This document shows, piece by piece, positions 29,091-57,158 of a DNA stretch of 64,000 nucleotides. Source of the DNA: Methanobacteriota archaeon (GTDB taxonomy: Archaea; Thermoplasmatota; Poseidoniia; Poseidoniales; Thalassarchaeaceae); assembly GCA_004195715.1 (NCBI GenBank), contig PSPX01000003.1, positions 5,232 to 69,231 on the forward strand. Direction: 5' to 3'. A program made the position numbers and the translations under genes. The notes beneath the pieces are model-generated. The model was not told where the DNA came from. It made no database searches and was given only the letters and a program-made list of their open reading frames with translations. How positions within the stretch are numbered: position 1 is the stretch's first letter; every line of letters starts with the position of its first letter.

Positions 29091-29165
29091 ACGAGTGTAG
29101 TGTAGTGGTTATCACCGGGCGTTGCCAACGCCTGAACCCGGGTTCAAATCCCGGCACTCGTACCA
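29091..29165 (+). tRNA. tRNA-Gly (anticodon GCC), CCA encoded
   Basis: Hand-folded. Acceptor ACGAGTG/CACTCGT, anticodon stem GGGCG/CGCCT with loop TTGCCAA, T-arm CCGGG-TTCAAAT-CCCGG, discriminator A, CCA. Confidence 0.75.
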
Positions 29166-29245
29166 TTCGATTGTTCCAGATGCCCTCGAATCGCTCGTAG
29201 AGGTGACTTCGACAGATTCAATATGTAATGCCATGACTCCACTTC

Positions 29246-29590
29246 ATGAAAGAATTCAGAATCAACATGAGTGATGAACCCGGTTCTCTAGCTGAGCTCT
29301 GCGAGACTATCGCTTCGAAAGACGTCAACATACTGACTATCGTTGCAATATCGGGAGAACCCGCATCTGCTGCAATCTTGACCGACAACGCAGATGCCAC
29401 CTCTGCGGCGCTTGATGGAATGGGTGCTAAATACTCGGTAGCAGATCTCAAGTCAGCCAAGTTGGATCACAAGCCGGGCTCACTGGCCGCCTTCACAAGA
29501 GGGATGAGCAACTCCGAAGTCAACCTCACATCGCTATACGTCATGTCAATGGATGGCGACAGCGCCACCATCGGTTACACTACTGACTGA
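29246..29590 (+). CDS. ACT-domain protein (small amino-acid-binding regulatory domain)
   Basis: 114 aa. RINMSDEPGSLAELCETIASKDVNILTIVAIS fits the ACT beta-alpha-beta-beta-alpha-beta pattern. It sits between two tRNA genes. Confidence 0.5.
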   Translation: MKEFRINMSDEPGSLAELCETIASKDVNILTIVAISGEPASAAILTDNADATSAALDGMGAKYSVADLKSAKLDHKPGSLAAFTRGMSNSEVNLTSLYVMSMDGDSATIGYTTD

Positions 29591-29595
29591 TGCAA

Positions 29596-29670
29596 GCGGA
29601 CATGGTCTAGTGGTTATGACAGTAGGTTCCCAACCTGCTAACCCGGGTTCAACTCCCGGTGTCCGCACCA
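29596..29670 (+). tRNA. tRNA-Gly (anticodon CCC), CCA encoded
   Basis: Acceptor GCGGACA/TGTCCGC, anticodon stem GTAGG/CCTGC with loop TTCCCAA, T-arm CCGGG-TTCAACT-CCCGG, discriminator A, CCA. Confidence 0.75.
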
Positions 29671-29728
29671 ATCGCACGCGTGAGGGTTTAGCAACGCTAA
29701 TGCGCGAATCTGAATTCGAACGGCCACA

Positions 29729-29806
29729 GGGCCCGTGGGTTAGCTTGGCCTATACTTGGCGCTTCGGGGGCGTTAGACCTCAGTTCAAATCTGGGCGGGC
29801 CCACCA
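29729..29806 (+). tRNA. tRNA-Pro (anticodon CGG), CCA encoded
   Basis: Acceptor GGGCCCG/CGGGCCC, anticodon stem GGCGC/GCGTT with loop TTCGGGG, T-arm CTCAG-TTCAAAT-CTGGG, discriminator A, CCA. The D-arm pairing is irregular by hand-folding and needs tRNAscan confirmation. Confidence 0.6.
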
Positions 29807-51260: not shown

Positions 51261-52949
51261 TCACTCGAGCCGCTTGATTCCGGGAAGCGGGTGCGGGTCG
51301 CCCTTGGATGACGTTCTCCTGAGTTGCGAGAACCTGAGTCCACCTTCCTGATTAGGAAGTTGGGTGGGCCTGCTCTCACCTCCGCTCGATACTCTGTTCA
51401 CGAGATGGTCCAATGCGTCCTGTGCTGAATGAGGGTGGGGCGCCCGCGACTCTCTCGCTCTACCAGCCACATCCGCCTGGTGATCTTGGTCACTGCGAAG
51501 ACGGATGTGCTGTGAGGATTGGAACCTAGCTCCCGACTGTACTTCCCCTCCATCTCCATCTCCGTACTCAGAAGCGTAAGAGTCGGTGGTTCTGTCAACC
51601 GCCCGAGCCGCCGGACCTAGTAGGGCACCAATCCAACTGGTTCGTCTGAGGGGTGTCTTCCTACTACTGGTTTTGACCCTGCCCGAACTCATCGAGTTGG
51701 CGATTCTGGATAGCCCCGGGAATTCCTCGAGACTCGAGGCATCGAGCGCAGGCTGGGACATCTCGCCGCTAGTCAGCAGCGCCTGCTTGGCTCGTGCCTG
51801 CTTGACGACACCGGGTCGACATTCCTCCCGTATCGCTGCCTCAGTGGGGGCCGGCAGACCGGGCCCGGCGTAGGGGCCTGAGGTCCCGAACCTATCTTGA
51901 GCCCGTCTAATCAACTGCGAGCTGGTCGGATCTCGTTTGAAAGCAGGAGGGTCTGTAGCGTTGATGTAGGTCTCAGAAGGAGCGTAACTTGCCGCAGGTG
52001 TGGCGAACTCAGAGGGAGGAGGAGTCGTGGGCGGCGAGTAACTGGTCGCAGGTTCAGCATCGAACATACCGCCCTCACTGAACATGCCCATTCCGGTAGC
52101 AGCCTCATCCAGCGCCGAGTCTATCCTGCTGCCAGCCGGCTTCTCTTCGTACCACGATGGGGACTCATTCTTCCCCCAAGCCCTCTCATAAGCCGAGCGA
52201 ACATCCTCCTGAGGAGAGGGGGGCGGCTCGTAACTTGGAAACGATTCTGTAGGAATCTTGCCTTCCCACGGGAAGATCGACTCAGCCTCAGCCATCGCAG
52301 GTGCTGGGGGAGTAGGTGACGGTGGGGCGGCGAAGCCGTCGAACAACGACTCTCCTACCGACTCTGACTCAGCACCGAGCAGCAACTCTTCCTCTGGTGC
52401 GACCAGCAGGCCCTTTGGTTCTGACAGTCCGCCTCCGGCGTCTCTGAAAGCGGGGTAGTTCGACAGTTCCGCATCGATGTGCTCAAGCCCCCTGCGGGCT
52501 TCATCTATCGAATTACCGTGGCGGACTCTATCGACCATCAGACACAACCTGAGCAGTATTCCTTCGCTGCCAGATATGATATGTCGGTCCCCAGCCTCTG
52601 TCTCGATAGCAAGGACCGAGGTCCTAGATAGCACGTATCCTAGTAGTGTCAGAGATCCTCCCGCCAGCGCCACCATGGCGTAAGGAGGCATCAGAACGTT
52701 CATGCCGAGATAGATTGCCAACAGCCCAATGGGAACGGCTCCCGAGGGAAACATCGGGACTTTCATGTGTCGCATTCTTGATATCGAACCCAGAGATAGT
52801 CGGATGCCATGTCCATCAAATCTCTCCAGCGTTAGCTGACGCTTAGTGAGGACCGCTACGAACCTACCTCCAGACCCGACCAGACTCAGATTGCCGAACA
52901 GTTCCGACTTCTCCTCATCTCGGTCGGGCGTTAGCCCGACTGAATACAT
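51261..52949 (-). CDS. Hypothetical membrane protein with long disordered Pro/Ser/Ala-rich C-terminal region
   Basis: 562 aa. N-terminal ~60-aa soluble segment, 2-3 TM helices, then a ~400-aa low-complexity tail (PPSPTPPAPA, SPPTTPPPSEF). Confidence 0.4.
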   Translation of the reverse strand: MYSVGLTPDRDEEKSELFGNLSLVGSGGRFVAVLTKRQLTLERFDGHGIRLSLGSISRMRHMKVPMFPSGAVPIGLLAIYLGMNVLMPPYAMVALAGGSLTLLGYVLSRTSVLAIETEAGDRHIISGSEGILLRLCLMVDRVRHGNSIDEARRGLEHIDAELSNYPAFRDAGGGLSEPKGLLVAPEEELLLGAESESVGESLFDGFAAPPSPTPPAPAMAEAESIFPWEGKIPTESFPSYEPPPSPQEDVRSAYERAWGKNESPSWYEEKPAGSRIDSALDEAATGMGMFSEGGMFDAEPATSYSPPTTPPPSEFATPAASYAPSETYINATDPPAFKRDPTSSQLIRRAQDRFGTSGPYAGPGLPAPTEAAIREECRPGVVKQARAKQALLTSGEMSQPALDASSLEEFPGLSRIANSMSSGRVKTSSRKTPLRRTSWIGALLGPAARAVDRTTDSYASEYGDGDGGEVQSGARFQSSQHIRLRSDQDHQADVAGRARESRAPHPHSAQDALDHLVNRVSSGGESRPTQLPNQEGGLRFSQLRRTSSKGDPHPLPGIKRLE

Positions 52950-53031: not shown

Positions 53032-54018
53032 TCATGCCAAGGTCATTTCTGAGGCTATACCCATGATGCGCATCGGCACAGCATCGAGATGAACTATCAA
53101 AATGGGTTCAGTACCACGTTTTCTCAGTAAAAGAGGGGTCTCCCAATCAATCAATACAAAGTCTTCCTTAACCTCTCTGACTCTTCCGACATTGAACTGT
53201 AGGTTGACGGCAGCGTGGACTACATCGTCCAGTGATAATCCTCGCTTCTGAAACGGGGCCTCGATTAATCTGAAACGGGACGATTCATGACTTTCAATGG
53301 CATCCGAATCTTGGTGTACTATCATGCAGCCCTTGTGTAGCGACTCTTCCTTGAGATTCCGCAATGCTAGGCCGACCCTGTCACCAGTAACCGCAGTGTC
53401 CACATCATCGTCCATCACTTGTAGACTTCTGACTATGCCGAAATCTCCTGCGGGATGAGATTCGATAGCATCGTGCTTGTTGACTGAACCGGACTGTACA
53501 TATCCAATGCCCACCAGCCCTATTCCTCGAACGACGAAGTGCTGATCGATAGGAATCACCAGTGCCTCTGAAACCGAGTTTTTCTCAACGCTCAAGAATT
53601 TGAGTAAAGTCTCTCTGAGATCGTGAGAATCAGGAGTCCCTTCCAAGACGGTCCAAGGCAAACCCGCTTGAGATAAAATCACCCTGACCTGGTCTGGATC
53701 CACCCAACCACCGTCTTCTGGATTGATGACTACTATCCCATCTGTGATGCCTGCGCATCCGAAGGATACCAAAACCTCCCCAAGAGCAGCATCCACTTTA
53801 GTAATCTCGACTAATCCCGCCTTGGCGACATTCAACACCGATAACAACGGGCGGATACTATCGGGGAACTTGAGAGGACGGAGCAATGAGATGATGCGAG
53901 TTTCACCACCAGACATCTCCTTGTACACGTACGACTCGATATCACGAACGTCTCCAAGCTTAGCGATACTTCGAGCCAATTCTTTCGAACCTACGTATCC
54001 AACGTTGAGGACAGGCAT
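53032..54018 (-). CDS. EF-Tu/EF1A-like protein with degenerate GTPase motifs (SelB-like pseudo-GTPase)
   Basis: Domain 2 beta-barrel VIPIDQHFVVRGIGLVGIGYVQSGSVNKHD...GDRVGLALRN is strongly EF-Tu-like, and a domain 3-like C-terminus follows. The N-terminal domain has NVGYVGSKELARSIAKLG instead of GHVDHGKST, and other G motifs are degenerate. Likely start at Met35 (complement ATG 54018). Confidence 0.55.
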   Translation of the reverse strand: MPVLNVGYVGSKELARSIAKLGDVRDIESYVYKEMSGGETRIISLLRPLKFPDSIRPLLSVLNVAKAGLVEITKVDAALGEVLVSFGCAGITDGIVVINPEDGGWVDPDQVRVILSQAGLPWTVLEGTPDSHDLRETLLKFLSVEKNSVSEALVIPIDQHFVVRGIGLVGIGYVQSGSVNKHDAIESHPAGDFGIVRSLQVMDDDVDTAVTGDRVGLALRNLKEESLHKGCMIVHQDSDAIESHESSRFRLIEAPFQKRGLSLDDVVHAAVNLQFNVGRVREVKEDFVLIDWETPLLLRKRGTEPILIVHLDAVPMRIMGIASEMTLA

Positions 54019-54064: not shown

Positions 54065-54541
54065 TCATCCCATGGCGTCGCGGGCGGCTTGAGCCCTAGT
54101 CCAGAGCTCTTTCTCCTCATTGGTCACAGGTGAGAACTGGGGAACCCCGGTCGGCCGCATATCTGAGTCGACCGCCACCATGAAGAAGAAACCCGAGCAG
54201 ATCTCCTCTCCCTCCCACTCCGAGCGTGACAGCCTGCACGATACCACGTGGACCCCAGTGGTGTGAGGAGAGGTCCAGACCACTCTGGAGGTGGTGCGGA
54301 TGATGTCCCCTTGGTAAGCCGGTCTGCGGAACTTGAGGGAGTCGACGGAGACGGTTACGAATTCACTGTGTGCGAACTTGCTTGAGACCATCCCGGCTGC
54401 GGTGTCCATGATTGACATCAGACGCCCTCCATACAGCGTATCCATCGAGTTGGTGTGCTCCGGGAAGACCTCATTCAGCAGCACGACGGGCTCGAGAGAG
54501 TGGGGTTCGGACATCTTTCTCATCCGCTCTCGAGAGCCCAC
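54065..54541 (-). CDS. Acyl-CoA thioesterase (hotdog fold, YciA/BFIT-like)
   Basis: 158 aa. GGRLMSIMDTAAGMVSSKF...VTVSVDSLKFRRPAYQGDII...FFFMVAVDSDMRPTGVPQ. Confidence 0.75.
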   Translation of the reverse strand: MGSRERMRKMSEPHSLEPVVLLNEVFPEHTNSMDTLYGGRLMSIMDTAAGMVSSKFAHSEFVTVSVDSLKFRRPAYQGDIIRTTSRVVWTSPHTTGVHVVSCRLSRSEWEGEEICSGFFFMVAVDSDMRPTGVPQFSPVTNEEKELWTRAQAARDAMG

Positions 54542-54720
54542 CCCCCTTCAATCCTACATTTCAGCAATCTTCTCCGAATCGGTTCTTCGACCGTTGTCTT
54601 CAATCGAGGGAGGCCGCTCGCAGAGCCGTGGAAGTGCCCCAGCTACGTTGGAATCCAACCGCCCTAGACGACCCAGACGGCGGACGCATAGTTCTGTGGC
54701 CGCACCTACCGTGCGTCCGC

Positions 54721-55428
54721 ATGCCGTCTTCACTGAGGTACAGGGACGCGTGGGACGGGCTCGCACTTTTGTTCAGTCCGAGCGATCTCAGTGGATGGCG
54801 GCAGGACGAGGAGCAGGACAGAGAGAGTCCTGGCGTACACATCGAGGCGGCCATCACTTCGGGCACTGTGCTCGGTCGGTTGATGAAAGACCTGCAAGAA
54901 TACGAGGTCGACGGACCGAAGATTCCCGACCCGGAACAGGTCCGGCTGTTGCTGCACGCCGACAACGCGAGGGGTGGGATGCCAATCTACGCAATCGAAC
55001 CGGAACTGGATGATGCCGATTGGGTAAATTGGTTCGAAAGGAGTGCTGATGAGCAGTCACGGGTAACCAATCTTCTCTCAACTTTGACCACTCCACGACG
55101 CTGGCGCAAGACTCGTTCTGCGGCTGTAGCGATGGTTGAGATGTCGAAAGGTGTGAACTCGCATATGGGCGCAGCAGCAGCATCTTGTGCGACTTGGTGG
55201 ATCGAAGAGCAGGGAGCGCTGACTACCGAACTGATATCCGAGCGCAACAGCCGCTTTGCGGCTCGTTTGCGCGGCGCCCTCGCAAATTTGAGGGACAGCA
55301 GGGTTGATGATGCGAAGGCATCTGACTGCACCTTACTGGTACCGGTCCACCAAGCCTGGTTGCCCTCCTTGGAGGCAGCAGTCAGAGCATGGCCGGACGC
55401 AGAACCGGTTAGCAAGGAGGAGCGATGA
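54721..55428 (+). CDS. Hypothetical protein
   Basis: The ORF-track entry (54412..) overlaps the thioesterase by 130 nt. An internal ATG at 54721 gives ~236 aa. No family assignment. Confidence 0.3.
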   Translation: MPSSLRYRDAWDGLALLFSPSDLSGWRQDEEQDRESPGVHIEAAITSGTVLGRLMKDLQEYEVDGPKIPDPEQVRLLLHADNARGGMPIYAIEPELDDADWVNWFERSADEQSRVTNLLSTLTTPRRWRKTRSAAVAMVEMSKGVNSHMGAAAASCATWWIEEQGALTTELISERNSRFAARLRGALANLRDSRVDDAKASDCTLLVPVHQAWLPSLEAAVRAWPDAEPVSKEER

Positions 55429-55955
55429 TGGAGGAAGGGAGGATAGTGGTCGGCATTGAGACCCAGACCTTCAGGTTCACGCCTTCTTCACCGATTAATC
55501 ATCACGATGCAGTGTCCCTAGCCGGTGGAACGGTGAGCGGCCCCTATGTCGTGGTCAGTCACGAGCAGCCTCGTGCCACCTTCGTCATCGAGCCCGACGG
55601 CTCTGTACTTGTGCATGGCATCGCAAGGACCGAAGTCGCAAGGATCGCAATGCAGGAGCTATTGTTGACCCTTGGAATGTCGGAGGAGAATCTGACAATA
55701 GAGATGGGAGGGATGCTAATCAGATTCTCAATTGGTAGGGCGGTGATGTTGAATCTCGCCGCAGATAGATTCGCTGATATCGAGTTCGATGACAGACTAG
55801 GAGCCCTGAGAATCAACGCCGCTCTACACAACGCACAGATCCTGATGTTCAACAACGGCCACGGTGTCGTACTGGGCCAGTCCTCGAAGAAGATAGCCGA
55901 GATGGCCGTGCGTCACTGGGCCGGCCTTCTCGATGAAGAGGGAGCCCTAGCGTGA
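55425..55955 (+). CDS. Divergent TBP-fold protein with two internal repeats (TBP-like)
   Basis: 176 aa. The two halves align to each other and to the two TBP repeats: PRATFVIEPDGSVLVHGIARTEVARIAMQELLLTLG vs TBP [20 protein letters not shown]...; IRFSIGR...ILMFNNGHGVVLGQSSKKIAEMAVRHWAGLL vs TBP DIGRE...[27 protein letters not shown]. Identity to canonical archaeal TBP is low. Confidence 0.45.
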   Translation: MMEEGRIVVGIETQTFRFTPSSPINHHDAVSLAGGTVSGPYVVVSHEQPRATFVIEPDGSVLVHGIARTEVARIAMQELLLTLGMSEENLTIEMGGMLIRFSIGRAVMLNLAADRFADIEFDDRLGALRINAALHNAQILMFNNGHGVVLGQSSKKIAEMAVRHWAGLLDEEGALA

Positions 55956-55959
55956 GACC

Positions 55960-56850
55960 ATGTTGCTGGACGGGCGCTGGACAGGCCCCATCCTCGACCA
56001 GCACATGCACCTCGATCGTTCCAATAGGTTCCTCGACGCAGTCTCGGAATTCACTCTCGCCGGTGGCACCGGGATTATGCTAGTCCACAAGCCTAGCTTC
56101 TCTTCGGACTTGCCTACAGATTTAGACGGCTACCGGAGAGCCTACTCGGACACACTTAGTATGGCTGAGGAAGTGAGGGCTGCATACGGAATCGAAGTGA
56201 GAGTCGTACTCGGCCCACACCCCGTCGTCTGGGAGCACCAGATCGAGCCGCTTGGCCTCAAGAGAGCGACAGAGCTCCACCTCGAAGCAGTAAACCTCGC
56301 GCTTGACCACATAGAAGCAGGAGATGCTGTCTGCCTCGGAGAGGTAGGAAGGCCGCACTACCCGGTCTCGGATGAGATTTGGAGCGCTGCCAATGAGATG
56401 CTCAGAGAGGTCATGACGATGGCTGCCGGAGCCGGCACGTCGATACAACTGCATGTCGAGGACAACGGTGAGGCTACCTGTCGAGAACTCGCAACTCTGT
56501 GTGACGAGGCGGGACTTGCTCGCAACCGAGCGATTCGTCACTACGCGCCCGCTGACGTCGGCACCAACTTCACACACGGTCTCGCCGCCACCGTGAGTGT
56601 TGGCAGAGGAAGTGTGGAAACCATCACTGCTACCGCTGCCAGTGCCAGCGCCCCTTGGGGTATGGAGACCGACTTCCTCGACGACCCGCGCAGACCGGGT
56701 GCGGTTCTCGGCCCCAAGACCGTGCCCAAGCGCACGCAGCAACTGTGTGCTGCTCTGCAGGCATCCGGTTGGGACGATGACGAGGTGAGCGAGCTGATGA
56801 GTAGCATCCACAATGATTGGCCGGCACAGCTCTACTCAGTAGGTAACTGA
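55960..56850 (+). CDS. TatD-family metal-dependent hydrolase
   Basis: 296 aa. N-terminal ILDQHMHLD (HxH) and downstream metal-ligand His/Glu/Asp pattern of TIM-barrel amidohydrolase / TatD. Confidence 0.6.
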   Translation: MLLDGRWTGPILDQHMHLDRSNRFLDAVSEFTLAGGTGIMLVHKPSFSSDLPTDLDGYRRAYSDTLSMAEEVRAAYGIEVRVVLGPHPVVWEHQIEPLGLKRATELHLEAVNLALDHIEAGDAVCLGEVGRPHYPVSDEIWSAANEMLREVMTMAAGAGTSIQLHVEDNGEATCRELATLCDEAGLARNRAIRHYAPADVGTNFTHGLAATVSVGRGSVETITATAASASAPWGMETDFLDDPRRPGAVLGPKTVPKRTQQLCAALQASGWDDDEVSELMSSIHNDWPAQLYSVGN

Positions 56851-57081: not shown

Positions 57082-57158
57082 TGGTGCGCTCTGGGGAATT
57101 CGAATCCCCGTGGACGGGTTGGAAACCCGTAATCATAACCAGACTAGATCAAGAGCGC
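57082..57158 (-). tRNA. tRNA-Gly (anticodon TCC), CCA encoded
   Basis: Reverse complement reads GCGCTCT...acceptor/AGAGCGC, anticodon stem ACGGG/CCCGT with loop TTTCCAA, T-arm GGGGA-TTCGAAT-TCCCC, discriminator A, CCA. Confidence 0.75.

What the first reader, a model, noticed from the sequence alone, without database searches (positions are those of the whole stretch)
53032..54018. EF1A/EF-Tu paralog with degenerate GTP-binding motifs (pseudo-GTPase; archaeal SelB-like candidate)
Domains 2 and 3 are clearly EF-Tu-like. The G domain has lost the P-loop (NVGYVGSKELARSIAKLG instead of GHVDHGKS) and other G-box residues. A family of archaeal SelB-like factors with mutated G motifs has been described, and this gene fits that pattern. 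Their function remains unknown. Candidates include aa-tRNA or tRNA-like RNA binding without GTP hydrolysis.
Basis: partly seen in the sequence, partly recalled or inferred. Interest (0 to 1): 0.55.

Follow-up and report, generated by a model that had tools for sequence, protein, structure and literature searches.

The report
GTPase-dead SelB-like factor (aSelBL)
This gene in a marine Group II archaeon encodes a well-conserved relative of the tRNA-delivery factors EF-Tu and SelB that has lost its GTP-binding motifs; it belongs to the known but functionally unsolved aSelBL family, so it is a new member rather than a new kind of protein.

Summary
The minus-strand ORF 53032..54018 (328 aa) encodes a three-domain EF-Tu/SelB-fold protein with no working G1-G5 motifs.

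A profile of 115 relatives matches MM1309, the crystallised aSelBL of Methanosarcina mazei, over its full length at E=7e-75. True aSelB scores 3e-45 and EF1A 2e-25. The protein has the 15-aa aSelBL deletion and the two further deletions of the "divergent" aSelBLs, and it lacks SelB domain IV.

The AlphaFold2 model (pLDDT 96.5) has a closed, GTP-form-like shape. Residues lining the tRNA A76 and aminoacyl pocket are almost invariant. dN/dS in the G-like domain is 0.07-0.14, the same range as in domains II and III.

The gene was found in 434 Poseidoniales species genomes. Its clade has a private signature: D23, R25, R47, Q159 and a 4-aa insert.

Most likely function (inferred): a nucleotide-independent binder or protector of aminoacyl-tRNA, by analogy with MM1309, which protects Cys-tRNACys. 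The cargo is unknown, and gene neighbourhood gives no clue.

Verdict: a new member of a known family, of moderate-to-low interest.

The parts
53032..54018 (-). aSelBL gene: 328 codons plus the stop codon at 53032-53034
   Evidence: ORF list. Start supported by homologue N-termini. Family profile against PDB gives MM1309 at E=7e-75. dN/dS is 0.12-0.13.
53599..54018 (-). Residues 1-140: degenerate G-like domain (Rossmann-like alpha/beta fold) with no canonical G1-G5 motifs
   Evidence: Model secondary structure, alignment A3, residue map. dN/dS is 0.07-0.14.
53965..54012 (-). Residues 3-18: beta1, a two-residue turn (G10, S11) and short helix alpha1. GSKELARS is a relic of Walker A, and the P-loop is collapsed.
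   Evidence: L14 and I18 are conserved hydrophobic positions, consistent with a helix face.
53941..53961 (-). Residues 20-26, KLGDVRD: the switch I / G2 equivalent. K20 is conserved across the family. D23 and R25 are specific to the Marine Group II (MGII) clade and replace the Thr/Ser that line the aminoacyl pocket of MM1309.
   Evidence: Pocket residues of MM1309 from PMC4329189.
53866..53880 (-). Residues 47-51, RPLKF: the G3 equivalent of DxPGH. The Mg-binding Asp is replaced by Arg, which is invariant in the clade, and the catalytic His by Phe.
53713..53724 (-). Residues 99-102, NPED: a 4-aa segment at the G4 (NKxD) position. It is present only in the MGII-like clade, and its fourth position is not conserved.
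53305..53562 (-). Residues 153-238: domain II beta-barrel (Pfam GTP_EFTU_D2). It carries the A76 and aminoacyl pocket residues D158, F161, V163, V169, S198, Q200 and R214.
   Evidence: Pfam hit. Near-invariance in 115 relatives.
53035..53304 (-). Residues 239-328: domain III beta-barrel. The protein ends here, with no SelB domain IV.
   Evidence: Model. Full-length matches to MM1309.
54065..54541 (-). Upstream same-strand neighbour: a YciA-like hot-dog (4HBT) acyl-CoA thioesterase, 46 nt from the aSelBL start. The adjacency is conserved in this lineage only; a functional link is unproven.
   Evidence: Synteny in 71 of 80 loci and next to relatives only 34% identical.
51261..52949 (-). Downstream same-strand neighbour: a 562-aa protein with N-terminal hydrophobic segments and a long Pro/Ser/Glu-rich tail, with no family match. 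Syntenic in this lineage.

Best explanation
**What it is.** The gene encodes a member of the archaeal SelB-like (aSelBL) family, of the 'divergent' type, in a Marine Group IIb (Thalassarchaeaceae, Poseidoniales) archaeon. It keeps the three-domain EF-Tu/SelB architecture.

**How it most likely works.** The former GTPase domain can no longer bind or hydrolyse GTP in the canonical way. It instead acts as a fixed structural lid that holds the protein permanently in the closed, 'GTP-form' shape. In that shape the domain I/II cleft forms the pocket for the 3'-terminal A76 and the esterified amino acid of an aminoacyl-tRNA. The protein therefore most likely binds a charged tRNA without any nucleotide. 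It would shield the labile ester bond and side chain, or hand the tRNA on, rather than act as a GTP-timed elongation factor.

**Cargo.** The cargo is unknown. Cys-tRNACys is the only precedent, from MM1309. The clade-specific pocket changes (Thr to Asp23, Ser to Arg25, His to Gln159, Met to Ser29) argue that the specificity may differ.

**Shown versus inferred.** Shown here: family membership, loss of the G motifs, the closed predicted fold, pocket conservation and purifying selection. Inferred: no GTP binding, and aminoacyl-tRNA binding. My confidence in membership is about 0.95, in the absence of canonical GTP binding about 0.8, in aminoacyl-tRNA binding about 0.55, and in Cys-tRNA as the specific cargo about 0.2.
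For: **Membership.**
- The family profile matches MM1309 at E=7e-75 over its full length, against 3e-45 for aSelB and 2e-25 for EF1A.
- Using the single sequence, only MM1309 also aligns within the G domain.
- Best TM-score is to 3wnb.
- The 15-aa, 5-aa and 10-aa signature deletions are present and there is no domain IV (definitions).

**Loss of the nucleotide site.**
- The MM1309 residues that contact GMPPNP are K11, G13, R14, T15, S16, D46, D103 and T136 (PMC4329189).
- Their equivalents here are E13, A15, R16, gap, gap, R47, a non-conserved D102, and P129 beside the deleted G5 loop.
- Only two residues connect beta1 to alpha1 in a model with pLDDT 96.5 and pTM 0.93.

**Closed state.** TM-scores are 0.77-0.83 to GTP-form EF-Tu, SelB and MM1309, but 0.43-0.47 to GDP-form EF-Tu and EF1A. 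MM1309 itself is closed in its GMPPNP, GDP and apo crystals.

**tRNA pocket.** D158, F161, V163, V169, S198, Q200 and R214 are each kept in at least 111 of 115 relatives. They correspond to the A76 and aminoacyl pocket residues of MM1309 and EF-Tu.

**Selection and spread.** dN/dS in the G-like domain is 0.07-0.14, similar to domains II and III. A relative is encoded in 434 species genomes.

**Functional precedent.** MM1309 lengthens the half-life of Cys-tRNACys from 80 to 300 min.
Against: - There is no biochemical data for any divergent aSelBL. The only experiment is on MM1309, which still binds GTP (Kd 0.43 uM), so the analogy crosses exactly the feature that differs.
- GSKELARS can be read as a degenerate Walker A (G-x4-A-R-S), and this particular protein keeps Asn99 and Asp102 at the G4 position. 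Non-canonical nucleotide binding is therefore not excluded.
- His192 (aSelB numbering), one of the three core pocket residues, is Gln here. Three further pocket-lining residues are changed, so the pocket may not take an amino acid of the Cys type, or any amino acid.
- The closed conformation comes from a prediction. I could not inspect the coordinates.
- Gene neighbourhood gives no translation link in this lineage.
Confidence: 0.6

Rival explanations
1. The protein is still a nucleotide-regulated switch. It would bind GTP, or another nucleotide or anionic ligand, through a remodelled site built from the Walker-A relic (G10...A15-R16-S17), K20, R25, R47 and N99/D102, as Atkinson et al. allowed ('hitherto unknown mechanism').
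For: - GSKELARS differs from the GTP-binding MM1309 loop GTEKSGRT at only one key position, Gly to Ala.
- Relative P0128 reads GSDEIGRT.
- The clade-invariant basic residues R25 and R47 sit in the switch I / G3 equivalents next to the former nucleotide site, judged by position in the sequence alignment.
- The G-like domain is under strong purifying selection.
Against: - Only two residues lie between beta1 and alpha1 in a high-confidence model.
- The first Gly is not invariant in the clade: it is Ala or Ser in P0122 and P0125.
- The conserved hydrophobic L14 fits a helix face, not a phosphate loop.
- The Mg-binding Asp is replaced by Arg, the G5 loop is deleted, and the guanine-reading Asp is not conserved (E/D/P/Q).
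Confidence: 0.12
2. The protein no longer handles tRNA at all. It would be a GTPase-dead mimic that binds the ribosome or a partner of aEF1A (for example aPelota or aRF1-type factors), or another protein, acting as a regulator, decoy or scaffold.
For: - The EF-Tu fold in a closed state is also the form in which archaeal EF1A binds Pelota; 3wxm is among the good structural matches.
- Core pocket His192 is replaced, and several pocket-lining residues have changed in this clade.
- Dead-enzyme paralogues often become regulators (general knowledge).
Against: - The most conserved residues of the whole family are exactly those lining the A76 and ester pocket: Q200 in 115 of 115 relatives, V169 in 113, F161 in 113, and D158, R214 and S198 in 111 each.
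- The one tested relative does bind an aminoacyl-tRNA.
- No partner gene is conserved across the family.
Confidence: 0.15
3. It is a genuine selenocysteine-specific elongation factor (SelB/EFSec), as JGI annotation names many of its relatives.
For: - The best NCBIfam hit is selB TIGR00475 (64.7 bits).
- JGI labels homologues 'selenocysteine-specific translation elongation factor'.
Against: - The score is far below the selB cut-off of 242 bits.
- There is no domain IV and no G motifs.
- There is no tRNA-Sec in the window.
- Selenocysteine use in archaea is reported only for Methanococcales, Methanopyrales and Asgard (PMC13188914).
Confidence: 0.01
4. It is a decaying pseudogene copy, or a divergent orthologue, of the ordinary aEF1A or aIF2-gamma.
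For: Domain II scores against EF-1-alpha models.
Against: - dN/dS is about 0.12 in all three domains.
- The ORF is intact in 434 species genomes.
- The profile scores 255 bits to MM1309 against 93 bits to EF1A.
- The fold is predicted with high confidence.
Confidence: 0.01

Closest known systems
aSelBL, 'divergent' subgroup (Atkinson, Hauryliuk & Tenson 2011, BMC Evol Biol 11:22; reported in Thermoplasmatales, Methanomicrobiales, Methanococcales, Thaumarchaeota and Sulfolobales)
   Same: - About 300-340 aa with three domains and no C-terminal extension.
- The 15-aa deletion relative to aSelB, the 5-aa shortening at G1 and the 10-aa deletion at G5.
- The G3 catalytic His is lost, and the Lys of the KGT-like motif is kept.
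- Asp191 and Arg247 of the pocket and the aromatic 'lid' (Y30) are kept.
- Function is unknown.
   Different: - The Poseidoniales clade has a fully coupled private signature: D/E23, R25, R47, Q159 and a 4-aa N-P-x-x insert. It is found in 11 of 11 clade members and in none of the 104 other relatives.
- The clade also has a 4-aa insert at residues 36-39.
- The family consensus K-G-T-x-S-D is K-x-G-D-x-R-D here, and E/D-P of G3 is R-P.
- The host is an aerobic marine heterotroph (my own knowledge), not an anaerobe.
MM1309 / 'EF-Pyl' / aEF-X of Methanosarcina mazei (PDB 2ELF, 3WNB-D; Yanagisawa et al. 2015), a 'conservative' aSelBL
   Same: - Best match by sequence profile (E=7e-75) and by TM-score (TMq 0.83).
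- Closed three-domain architecture.
- The A76 and aminoacyl pocket residues D178, F181, V183, V189, S218, Q220 and R234 are all conserved here.
   Different: - MM1309 keeps a working P-loop (GTEKSGRT), Asp46, Asp103 and the G5 loop, and binds GTP with Kd 0.43 uM. All of these are lost or altered here.
- Pocket residues T26, S28, M32 and H179 are D23, R25, S29 and Q159 here.
Archaeal SelB (aSelB/EFSec, e.g. M. maripaludis, PDB 4AC9)
   Same: Same midfamily. Domains I-III superpose (TMq 0.76-0.79), and pocket residues Asp191 and Arg247 are shared.
   Different: aSelB has intact G1-G5 motifs, 20 more residues between beta1 and the G2 Lys, and a domain IV. It also requires tRNA-Sec and the selenocysteine machinery.
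Pseudo-GTPases in general (G-domain folds that have lost nucleotide binding or hydrolysis)
   Same: A G-domain fold retained under purifying selection with degenerate G motifs, used as a structural module.
   Different: Here the dead G domain sits inside a translation-factor architecture whose other two domains still look competent to bind tRNA.

Membership tests
aSelBL (Atkinson et al. 2011) | Closer to aSelB and aSelBL than to EF1A/EF-Tu or aIF2-gamma | tested here: met
   Profile of 115 relatives: MM1309 255 bits, aSelB 158 bits, EF1A 93 bits. Single sequence: MM1309 is the best hit and the only one aligning in the G domain. No full maximum-likelihood phylogeny with aIF2-gamma or EF1A outgroups was run.
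aSelBL (Atkinson et al. 2011) | 15-aa deletion in the G domain relative to true aSelB (between alpha1 and G2) | tested here: met
   In alignment A3, MM1309 shows a 15-column gap against aSelB (whose sequence was verified against 4ac9_A). The window protein shares that gap and extends it to 20 columns.
aSelBL (Atkinson et al. 2011) | No C-terminal (domain IV) extension for SECIS recognition | tested here: met
   The protein is 328 aa and ends with the domain III barrel.
aSelBL (Atkinson et al. 2011) | Aminoacyl pocket core Asp191, His192, Arg247 (aSelB numbering) conserved | tested here: inconclusive
   D158 and R214 are present. His192 is Gln159, invariant in the clade; across the family the position is H in 53, Q in 37 and N in 11 sequences. 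Atkinson et al. already noted loss of this His in the longest-branched members.
aSelBL (Atkinson et al. 2011) | Aromatic 'lid' residue (Phe/Tyr at alignment positions 67/68) | tested here: met
   Y30 aligns with MM1309 Y33. The position is Y or F in 102 of 115 relatives.
aSelBL (Atkinson et al. 2011) | G2-like 'KGTxx' and G3-like 'E/D-P-xxx' consensus | tested here: inconclusive
   K20, G22 and P48 are present, but Thr is Asp23 and E/D is Arg47. Both are invariant in the Poseidoniales clade.
aSelBL, divergent subgroup | 4-5 aa deletion at G1 and a 10-14 aa deletion (alignment positions 140-149) | tested here: met
   There is a 5-aa shortening relative to MM1309 at G1/alpha1 and a 10-column gap at the SAK (G5) loop. 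My NJ tree did not recover monophyly of the subgroup (bootstrap 16%), so this assignment rests on the indels alone.
True SelB / EFSec | Intact G1-G5 motifs, domain IV, and co-occurrence with tRNA-Sec, SelD, PSTK and SepSecS | tested here: not met
   The G motifs are lost and there is no domain IV. The selB model scores 64.7 bits against a cut-off of 242. No tRNA-Sec is found in the window. The whole-genome machinery could not be checked; the literature limits archaeal selenocysteine use to Methanococcales, Methanopyrales and Asgard.
aEF1A / aIF2-gamma | Full-length match above the family cut-off, with a GHVDHGKS-type P-loop | tested here: not met
   EF-1-alpha models score 42-54 bits against cut-offs of 502-540, and match domain II only. 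No P-loop is present.
Canonical P-loop GTPase (functional) | Walker A GxxxxGK[ST], DxxG, [NT]KxD and SAx motifs, with nucleotide binding | tested here: not met
   At sequence and model level, none of the four motifs is intact. Actual nucleotide binding cannot be tested with these tools.

The most novel reading that the evidence does not exclude
The Poseidoniales proteins are a functionally distinct aSelBL subfamily. A coupled set of clade-invariant charged residues (D23, R25, R47, Q159, plus the N-P-x-x insert) would fill the former nucleotide/Mg site and re-line the amino-acid pocket. The protein would then be a permanently 'on', nucleotide-free carrier for a different cargo than Cys-tRNACys. 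That cargo could be another aminoacyl-tRNA, or an acyl or aminoacyl ligand used off the ribosome, possibly in concert with the YciA-like thioesterase that always precedes the gene in this lineage.
Probability: 0.12. Interest if true: 0.65.

Novelty: new member of a known kind. Interest (0 to 1): 0.3.

Why it matters
aSelBL is the only translational-GTPase paralogue that archaea added to their core set (Atkinson 2015). Fifteen years after its description it still has no known function.

This work shows that a strongly derived form with no intact G motifs is kept under tight purifying selection. It is present in hundreds of species of Marine Group II archaea, which are abundant aerobic ocean plankton (abundance and lifestyle are my own knowledge).

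Two consequences follow:
- It weakens the idea that the family is a cysteine guardian for anaerobes.
- It strengthens the view that the dead G domain is a structural element of a nucleotide-independent tRNA-end binder.

There is also a practical point. Relatives are annotated in public databases as 'selenocysteine-specific elongation factor' or 'EF-Tu/IF-2/RF-3 family GTPase'. The features found here do not support either label, and such labels could create false signals of selenocysteine use in marine metagenomes.

Tried and rejected
- **Genome scan with the full alignment.** The genome-contig scan with the 115-sequence alignment failed because no stretch was conserved enough. I repeated it with 12 close sequences, and it returned only Poseidoniales.
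- **AFDB fold search.** The afdb50 library was not available, so I could not get named AFDB relatives.
- **Names for distant relatives.** The listing of cluster members gave almost no organism names for distant representatives.
- **Gene neighbourhood as a clue to function.**
  - Within Poseidoniales, the order thioesterase, aSelBL, 540-562-aa protein, then PfkB, biotin carboxylase and an FAD/NAD reductase is kept. This is whole-block synteny, so it is weak evidence for a functional link.
  - In 85 metagenomic loci of other divergent aSelBLs, no neighbour family recurs at a fixed position in more than about 6 loci. This agrees with Atkinson et al.
  - Isolated translation-related neighbours do not recur: PTH2, Sua5/YrdC, a methionine aminopeptidase (Peptidase_M24 match) and aIF5A.
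- **NJ tree.** It gives 100% bootstrap support for the Poseidoniales-like clade but cannot resolve the conservative/divergent split (16%). I did not use it for subgroup assignment.
- **Literature.** Searches for aSelBL, MM1309, EF-Pyl, aEF-X and SelB-like found nothing on the family's function later than the 2015 MM1309 paper.
- **Readings rejected.** I rejected true SelB, ordinary EF1A or aIF2-gamma, and a pseudogene; the reasons are given under the rival explanations.
Full report
**The object**

The finding corresponds to a minus-strand ORF at 53032..54018 (stop codon included). It encodes 328 aa beginning MPVLNVGYVG. A longer reading from the ATG at 54120 would overlap the 3' end of the upstream gene at 54065..54541. 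Relatives at 44-71% identity all start M[PSV]V[LV]N, so 54018 is the probable start.

The window has about 56% G+C with no local anomaly. The closest genomic matches are Poseidoniales / Thalassarchaeaceae (Marine Group IIb) MAGs, at 96% amino-acid identity to CALDRG010000023 and 94% to a 'Candidatus Thalassarchaeum sp.' contig. In total 434 species-level genomes encode a relative.

**Checking the observation**

- Pfam finds only GTP_EFTU_D2 (residues 167-233, 33.6 bits against a cut-off of 30.3) and no GTP_EFTU G domain.
- NCBIfam's best models are selB (64.7 bits, cut-off 242) and EF-1-alpha (54 bits, cut-off 502). Both match only from about residue 132 onward.
- An AlphaFold2 model built on 115 relatives is very confident (mean pLDDT 96.5, pTM 0.93).

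I aligned the protein with MM1309 and with M. maripaludis aSelB. The MM1309 sequence was read from the tool output. My recalled aSelB sequence was verified as identical to 4ac9_A. The alignment and residue map show the following.

| Motif | aSelB | MM1309 | This protein | Note |
|---|---|---|---|---|
| G1 | GHIDHGKT | GTEKSGRT | GSKELARS | beta1-to-Lys20 stretch is 5 aa shorter than in MM1309 and 20 aa shorter than in aSelB |
| G2 | KRGITIDI | KKGTSSDI | KLGDVRDI | |
| G3 | DAPGH | DAHSY | RPLKF | |
| G4 | TKSD | TRSD | NPED | fourth position is E/D/P/Q in the clade |
| G5 | SAK loop | present | absent | lies in a 10-aa deletion |

The MM1309 residues that contact GMPPNP are K11, G13, R14, T15, S16, D46, D103 and T136. 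They map here to E13, A15, R16, gap, gap, R47, a non-conserved D102, and P129 beside the deleted G5 loop.

One nuance matters. GSKELARS can be read as a degenerate Walker A (G-x4-A-R-S), with the 5-aa deletion lying in helix alpha1 instead, and relative P0128 actually reads GSDEIGRT. Three points argue that the loop has been absorbed into a shortened alpha1:
- The model has beta1 at residues 3-9 and alpha1 at 12-18, with only two residues between them.
- L14 and I18 are conserved hydrophobic positions.
- The first Gly is not invariant in the clade.

**What it is**

A profile of 115 full-length relatives, taken from a search of 1.84 billion representative proteins (938 hits at E<=1e-3), was compared with PDB sequences:

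| PDB match | E-value | Bits | Coverage |
|---|---|---|---|
| MM1309 (3wnb) | 7e-75 | 255 | one stretch, profile positions 4-306 |
| aSelB (4ac9) | 3e-45 | 158 | profile positions 20-308 |
| EF1A (1jny) | 2e-25 | 93 | domains II-III only |

Foldseek gives its best TM-scores to 3wnb (TMq 0.83, TMt 0.76), followed by SelB structures. MM1309 is the crystallised 'conservative' aSelBL of Atkinson et al. 2011.

That paper defines aSelBL by its position next to aSelB, a 15-aa G-domain deletion, no C-terminal extension and disrupted G motifs. It defines the 'divergent' subgroup by a 4-5 aa G1 deletion and a 10-14 aa deletion. All of these indels are present here.

My NJ tree recovers the Poseidoniales-like clade with 100% bootstrap support but does not resolve the conservative/divergent split (16%). 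Subgroup assignment rests on the indels.

**Is it functional?**

Against four orthologues at 92-96% identity, dN/dS is 0.07-0.14 in the G-like domain, 0.07-0.15 in domain II and 0.12-0.29 in domain III. The degenerate domain is thus as constrained as the rest of the protein.

Within the clade, invariant residues in the G-like domain include K20, R25, R47, P48, D76, G80, E81, W105, D107 and Q110.

Across 115 relatives, the best-conserved positions are those that line the A76 and ester pocket in MM1309 and EF-Tu according to Yanagisawa et al.. Counts out of 115 are:

| Residue | Conserved in |
|---|---|
| Q200 | 115 |
| V169 | 113 |
| F161 | 113 |
| V163 | 112 |
| D158 | 111 |
| S198 | 111 |
| R214 | 111 |

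The model resembles GTP-form, closed structures (TM 0.77-0.83) and not GDP-form, open EF-Tu or EF1A (TM 0.43-0.47). MM1309 is likewise closed with GMPPNP, with GDP and without nucleotide.

**Mechanism proposed**

The former G domain is a fixed lid that keeps the protein in the tRNA-competent closed state without nucleotide. The protein binds the acceptor end of a charged tRNA and shields or transfers it.

The only experimental anchor is MM1309, which lengthens the half-life of Cys-tRNACys from 80 to 300 min. MM1309 still binds GTP, so the step from it to this protein is an inference.

The Poseidoniales clade has a coupled private signature: D/E23, R25, R47, Q159 and a 4-aa N-P-x-x insert. It occurs in 11 of 11 clade members and in none of the 104 other relatives. 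It replaces T26 and S28 beside the MM1309 pocket, H179 in the pocket, and the Mg-binding D46. The cargo may therefore differ from cysteine. This cannot be decided here.

**Rivals**

- A remodelled nucleotide site is not excluded. The evidence for it is the Walker-A relic, N99/D102 in this sequence, and the basic residues R25 and R47.
- A non-tRNA scaffold or decoy role is possible, but it fits the conservation pattern poorly.
- True SelB is rejected. There is no domain IV and there are no G motifs. No tRNA-Sec is found in the window. Selenocysteine use in archaea is reported only for Methanococcales, Methanopyrales and Asgard.
- An ordinary EF1A or aIF2-gamma, or a pseudogene, is rejected.

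**Context**

- Upstream on the same strand lies a YciA-like hot-dog thioesterase.
- Downstream lies a 562-aa protein with no family match and a low-complexity tail.
- On the other strand lie an unknown gene, a TBP-like gene and a TatD-family gene.

The thioesterase, aSelBL, long-protein order is kept in 71 of 80 MGIIb loci. It is also kept next to relatives only 34% identical, but there the whole block is syntenic.

In 85 loci of other divergent aSelBLs, no neighbour recurs at a fixed position in more than about 6 loci. This agrees with Atkinson et al. Context therefore gives no functional lead.

**Comparison, novelty and score**

This is a new lineage-specific member of a known, functionally unresolved family. 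I found no paper on the family's function later than the 2015 MM1309 study. Neither of the two aSelBL papers I read covers Marine Group II: Atkinson et al.'s distribution table does not list the group, and Yanagisawa et al. describe the MM1309 proteins as conserved among anaerobic archaea.

For a specialist the presence of an aSelBL in a Thermoplasmatota lineage is expected, since Thermoplasmatales were already listed. The clade-specific pocket signature and the aerobic host are modest new points. Interest is 0.3, and novelty is 'new member of a known kind'.

Noticed in passing
L083:4603-4986 (+) and L088:3610-3996 (+): A gene of about 127 aa with no Pfam match sits immediately upstream (15 nt and 4 nt gaps) of divergent aSelBL genes in two unrelated metagenomic contigs. 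The two small proteins are 36% identical (E=1e-33), while their aSelBLs are 40% identical. This may be a lineage-specific partner. It is absent from the window and from the MGII loci, and it did not appear among the recurrent neighbour clusters in the 85-locus survey.
   Followed up: partly
window 51261-52949 (-): A 562-aa ORF directly downstream of the aSelBL gene. It has N-terminal hydrophobic (probably membrane) segments and a long Pro/Ser/Glu/Ala-rich low-complexity tail, with no Pfam or NCBIfam match. A homologue is found at the same position in 71 of 80 MGIIb loci and, as a 540-aa protein, in L081.
   Followed up: partly
window 55425-55955 (+): A 176-aa protein with only a weak, partial match to the TATA-binding protein fold (Pfam TBP E=8e-7 with no single stretch passing; NCBIfam TBP E=0.0065). 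It may be a divergent, single-repeat TBP-like protein. It is followed by a TatD-family gene at 55960-56850, a neighbour type that Atkinson et al. noted next to aSelBL in ARMAN archaea.
   Followed up: no
window 54412-55428 (+) versus 54065-54541 (-): The mechanical 338-aa plus-strand ORF overlaps the thioesterase gene by about 130 nt, so its true start is probably further downstream. The protein has no family match but is syntenic in 48 of 80 loci.
   Followed up: no
Homologues P0007-P0094: Public annotation of this family is inconsistent and misleading. JGI names many members 'selenocysteine-specific translation elongation factor'. NCBI names them 'EF-Tu/IF-2/RF-3 family GTPase' or 'hypothetical protein'. 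The closest gene calls (P0001-P0003, 362 aa) use the upstream ATG that overlaps the neighbouring gene.
   Followed up: partly
window 29091-29806 (+) and 57082-57158 (-): A cluster of tRNA-Gly(GCC), tRNA-Gly(CCC) and tRNA-Pro(CGG), plus a separate tRNA-Gly(UCC). ARAGORN and Rfam find no tRNA-Sec and no other structured RNA family in the window.
   Followed up: yes
L088, L089, L090 (neighbours of distant aSelBLs): Individual distant aSelBL genes lie near translation-related genes: PTH2 peptidyl-tRNA hydrolase two genes upstream (L088), Sua5/YrdC and a Peptidase_M24 gene (methionine aminopeptidase family) downstream (L089), and aIF5A divergently upstream (L090). None of these recurs across loci.
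   Followed up: partly
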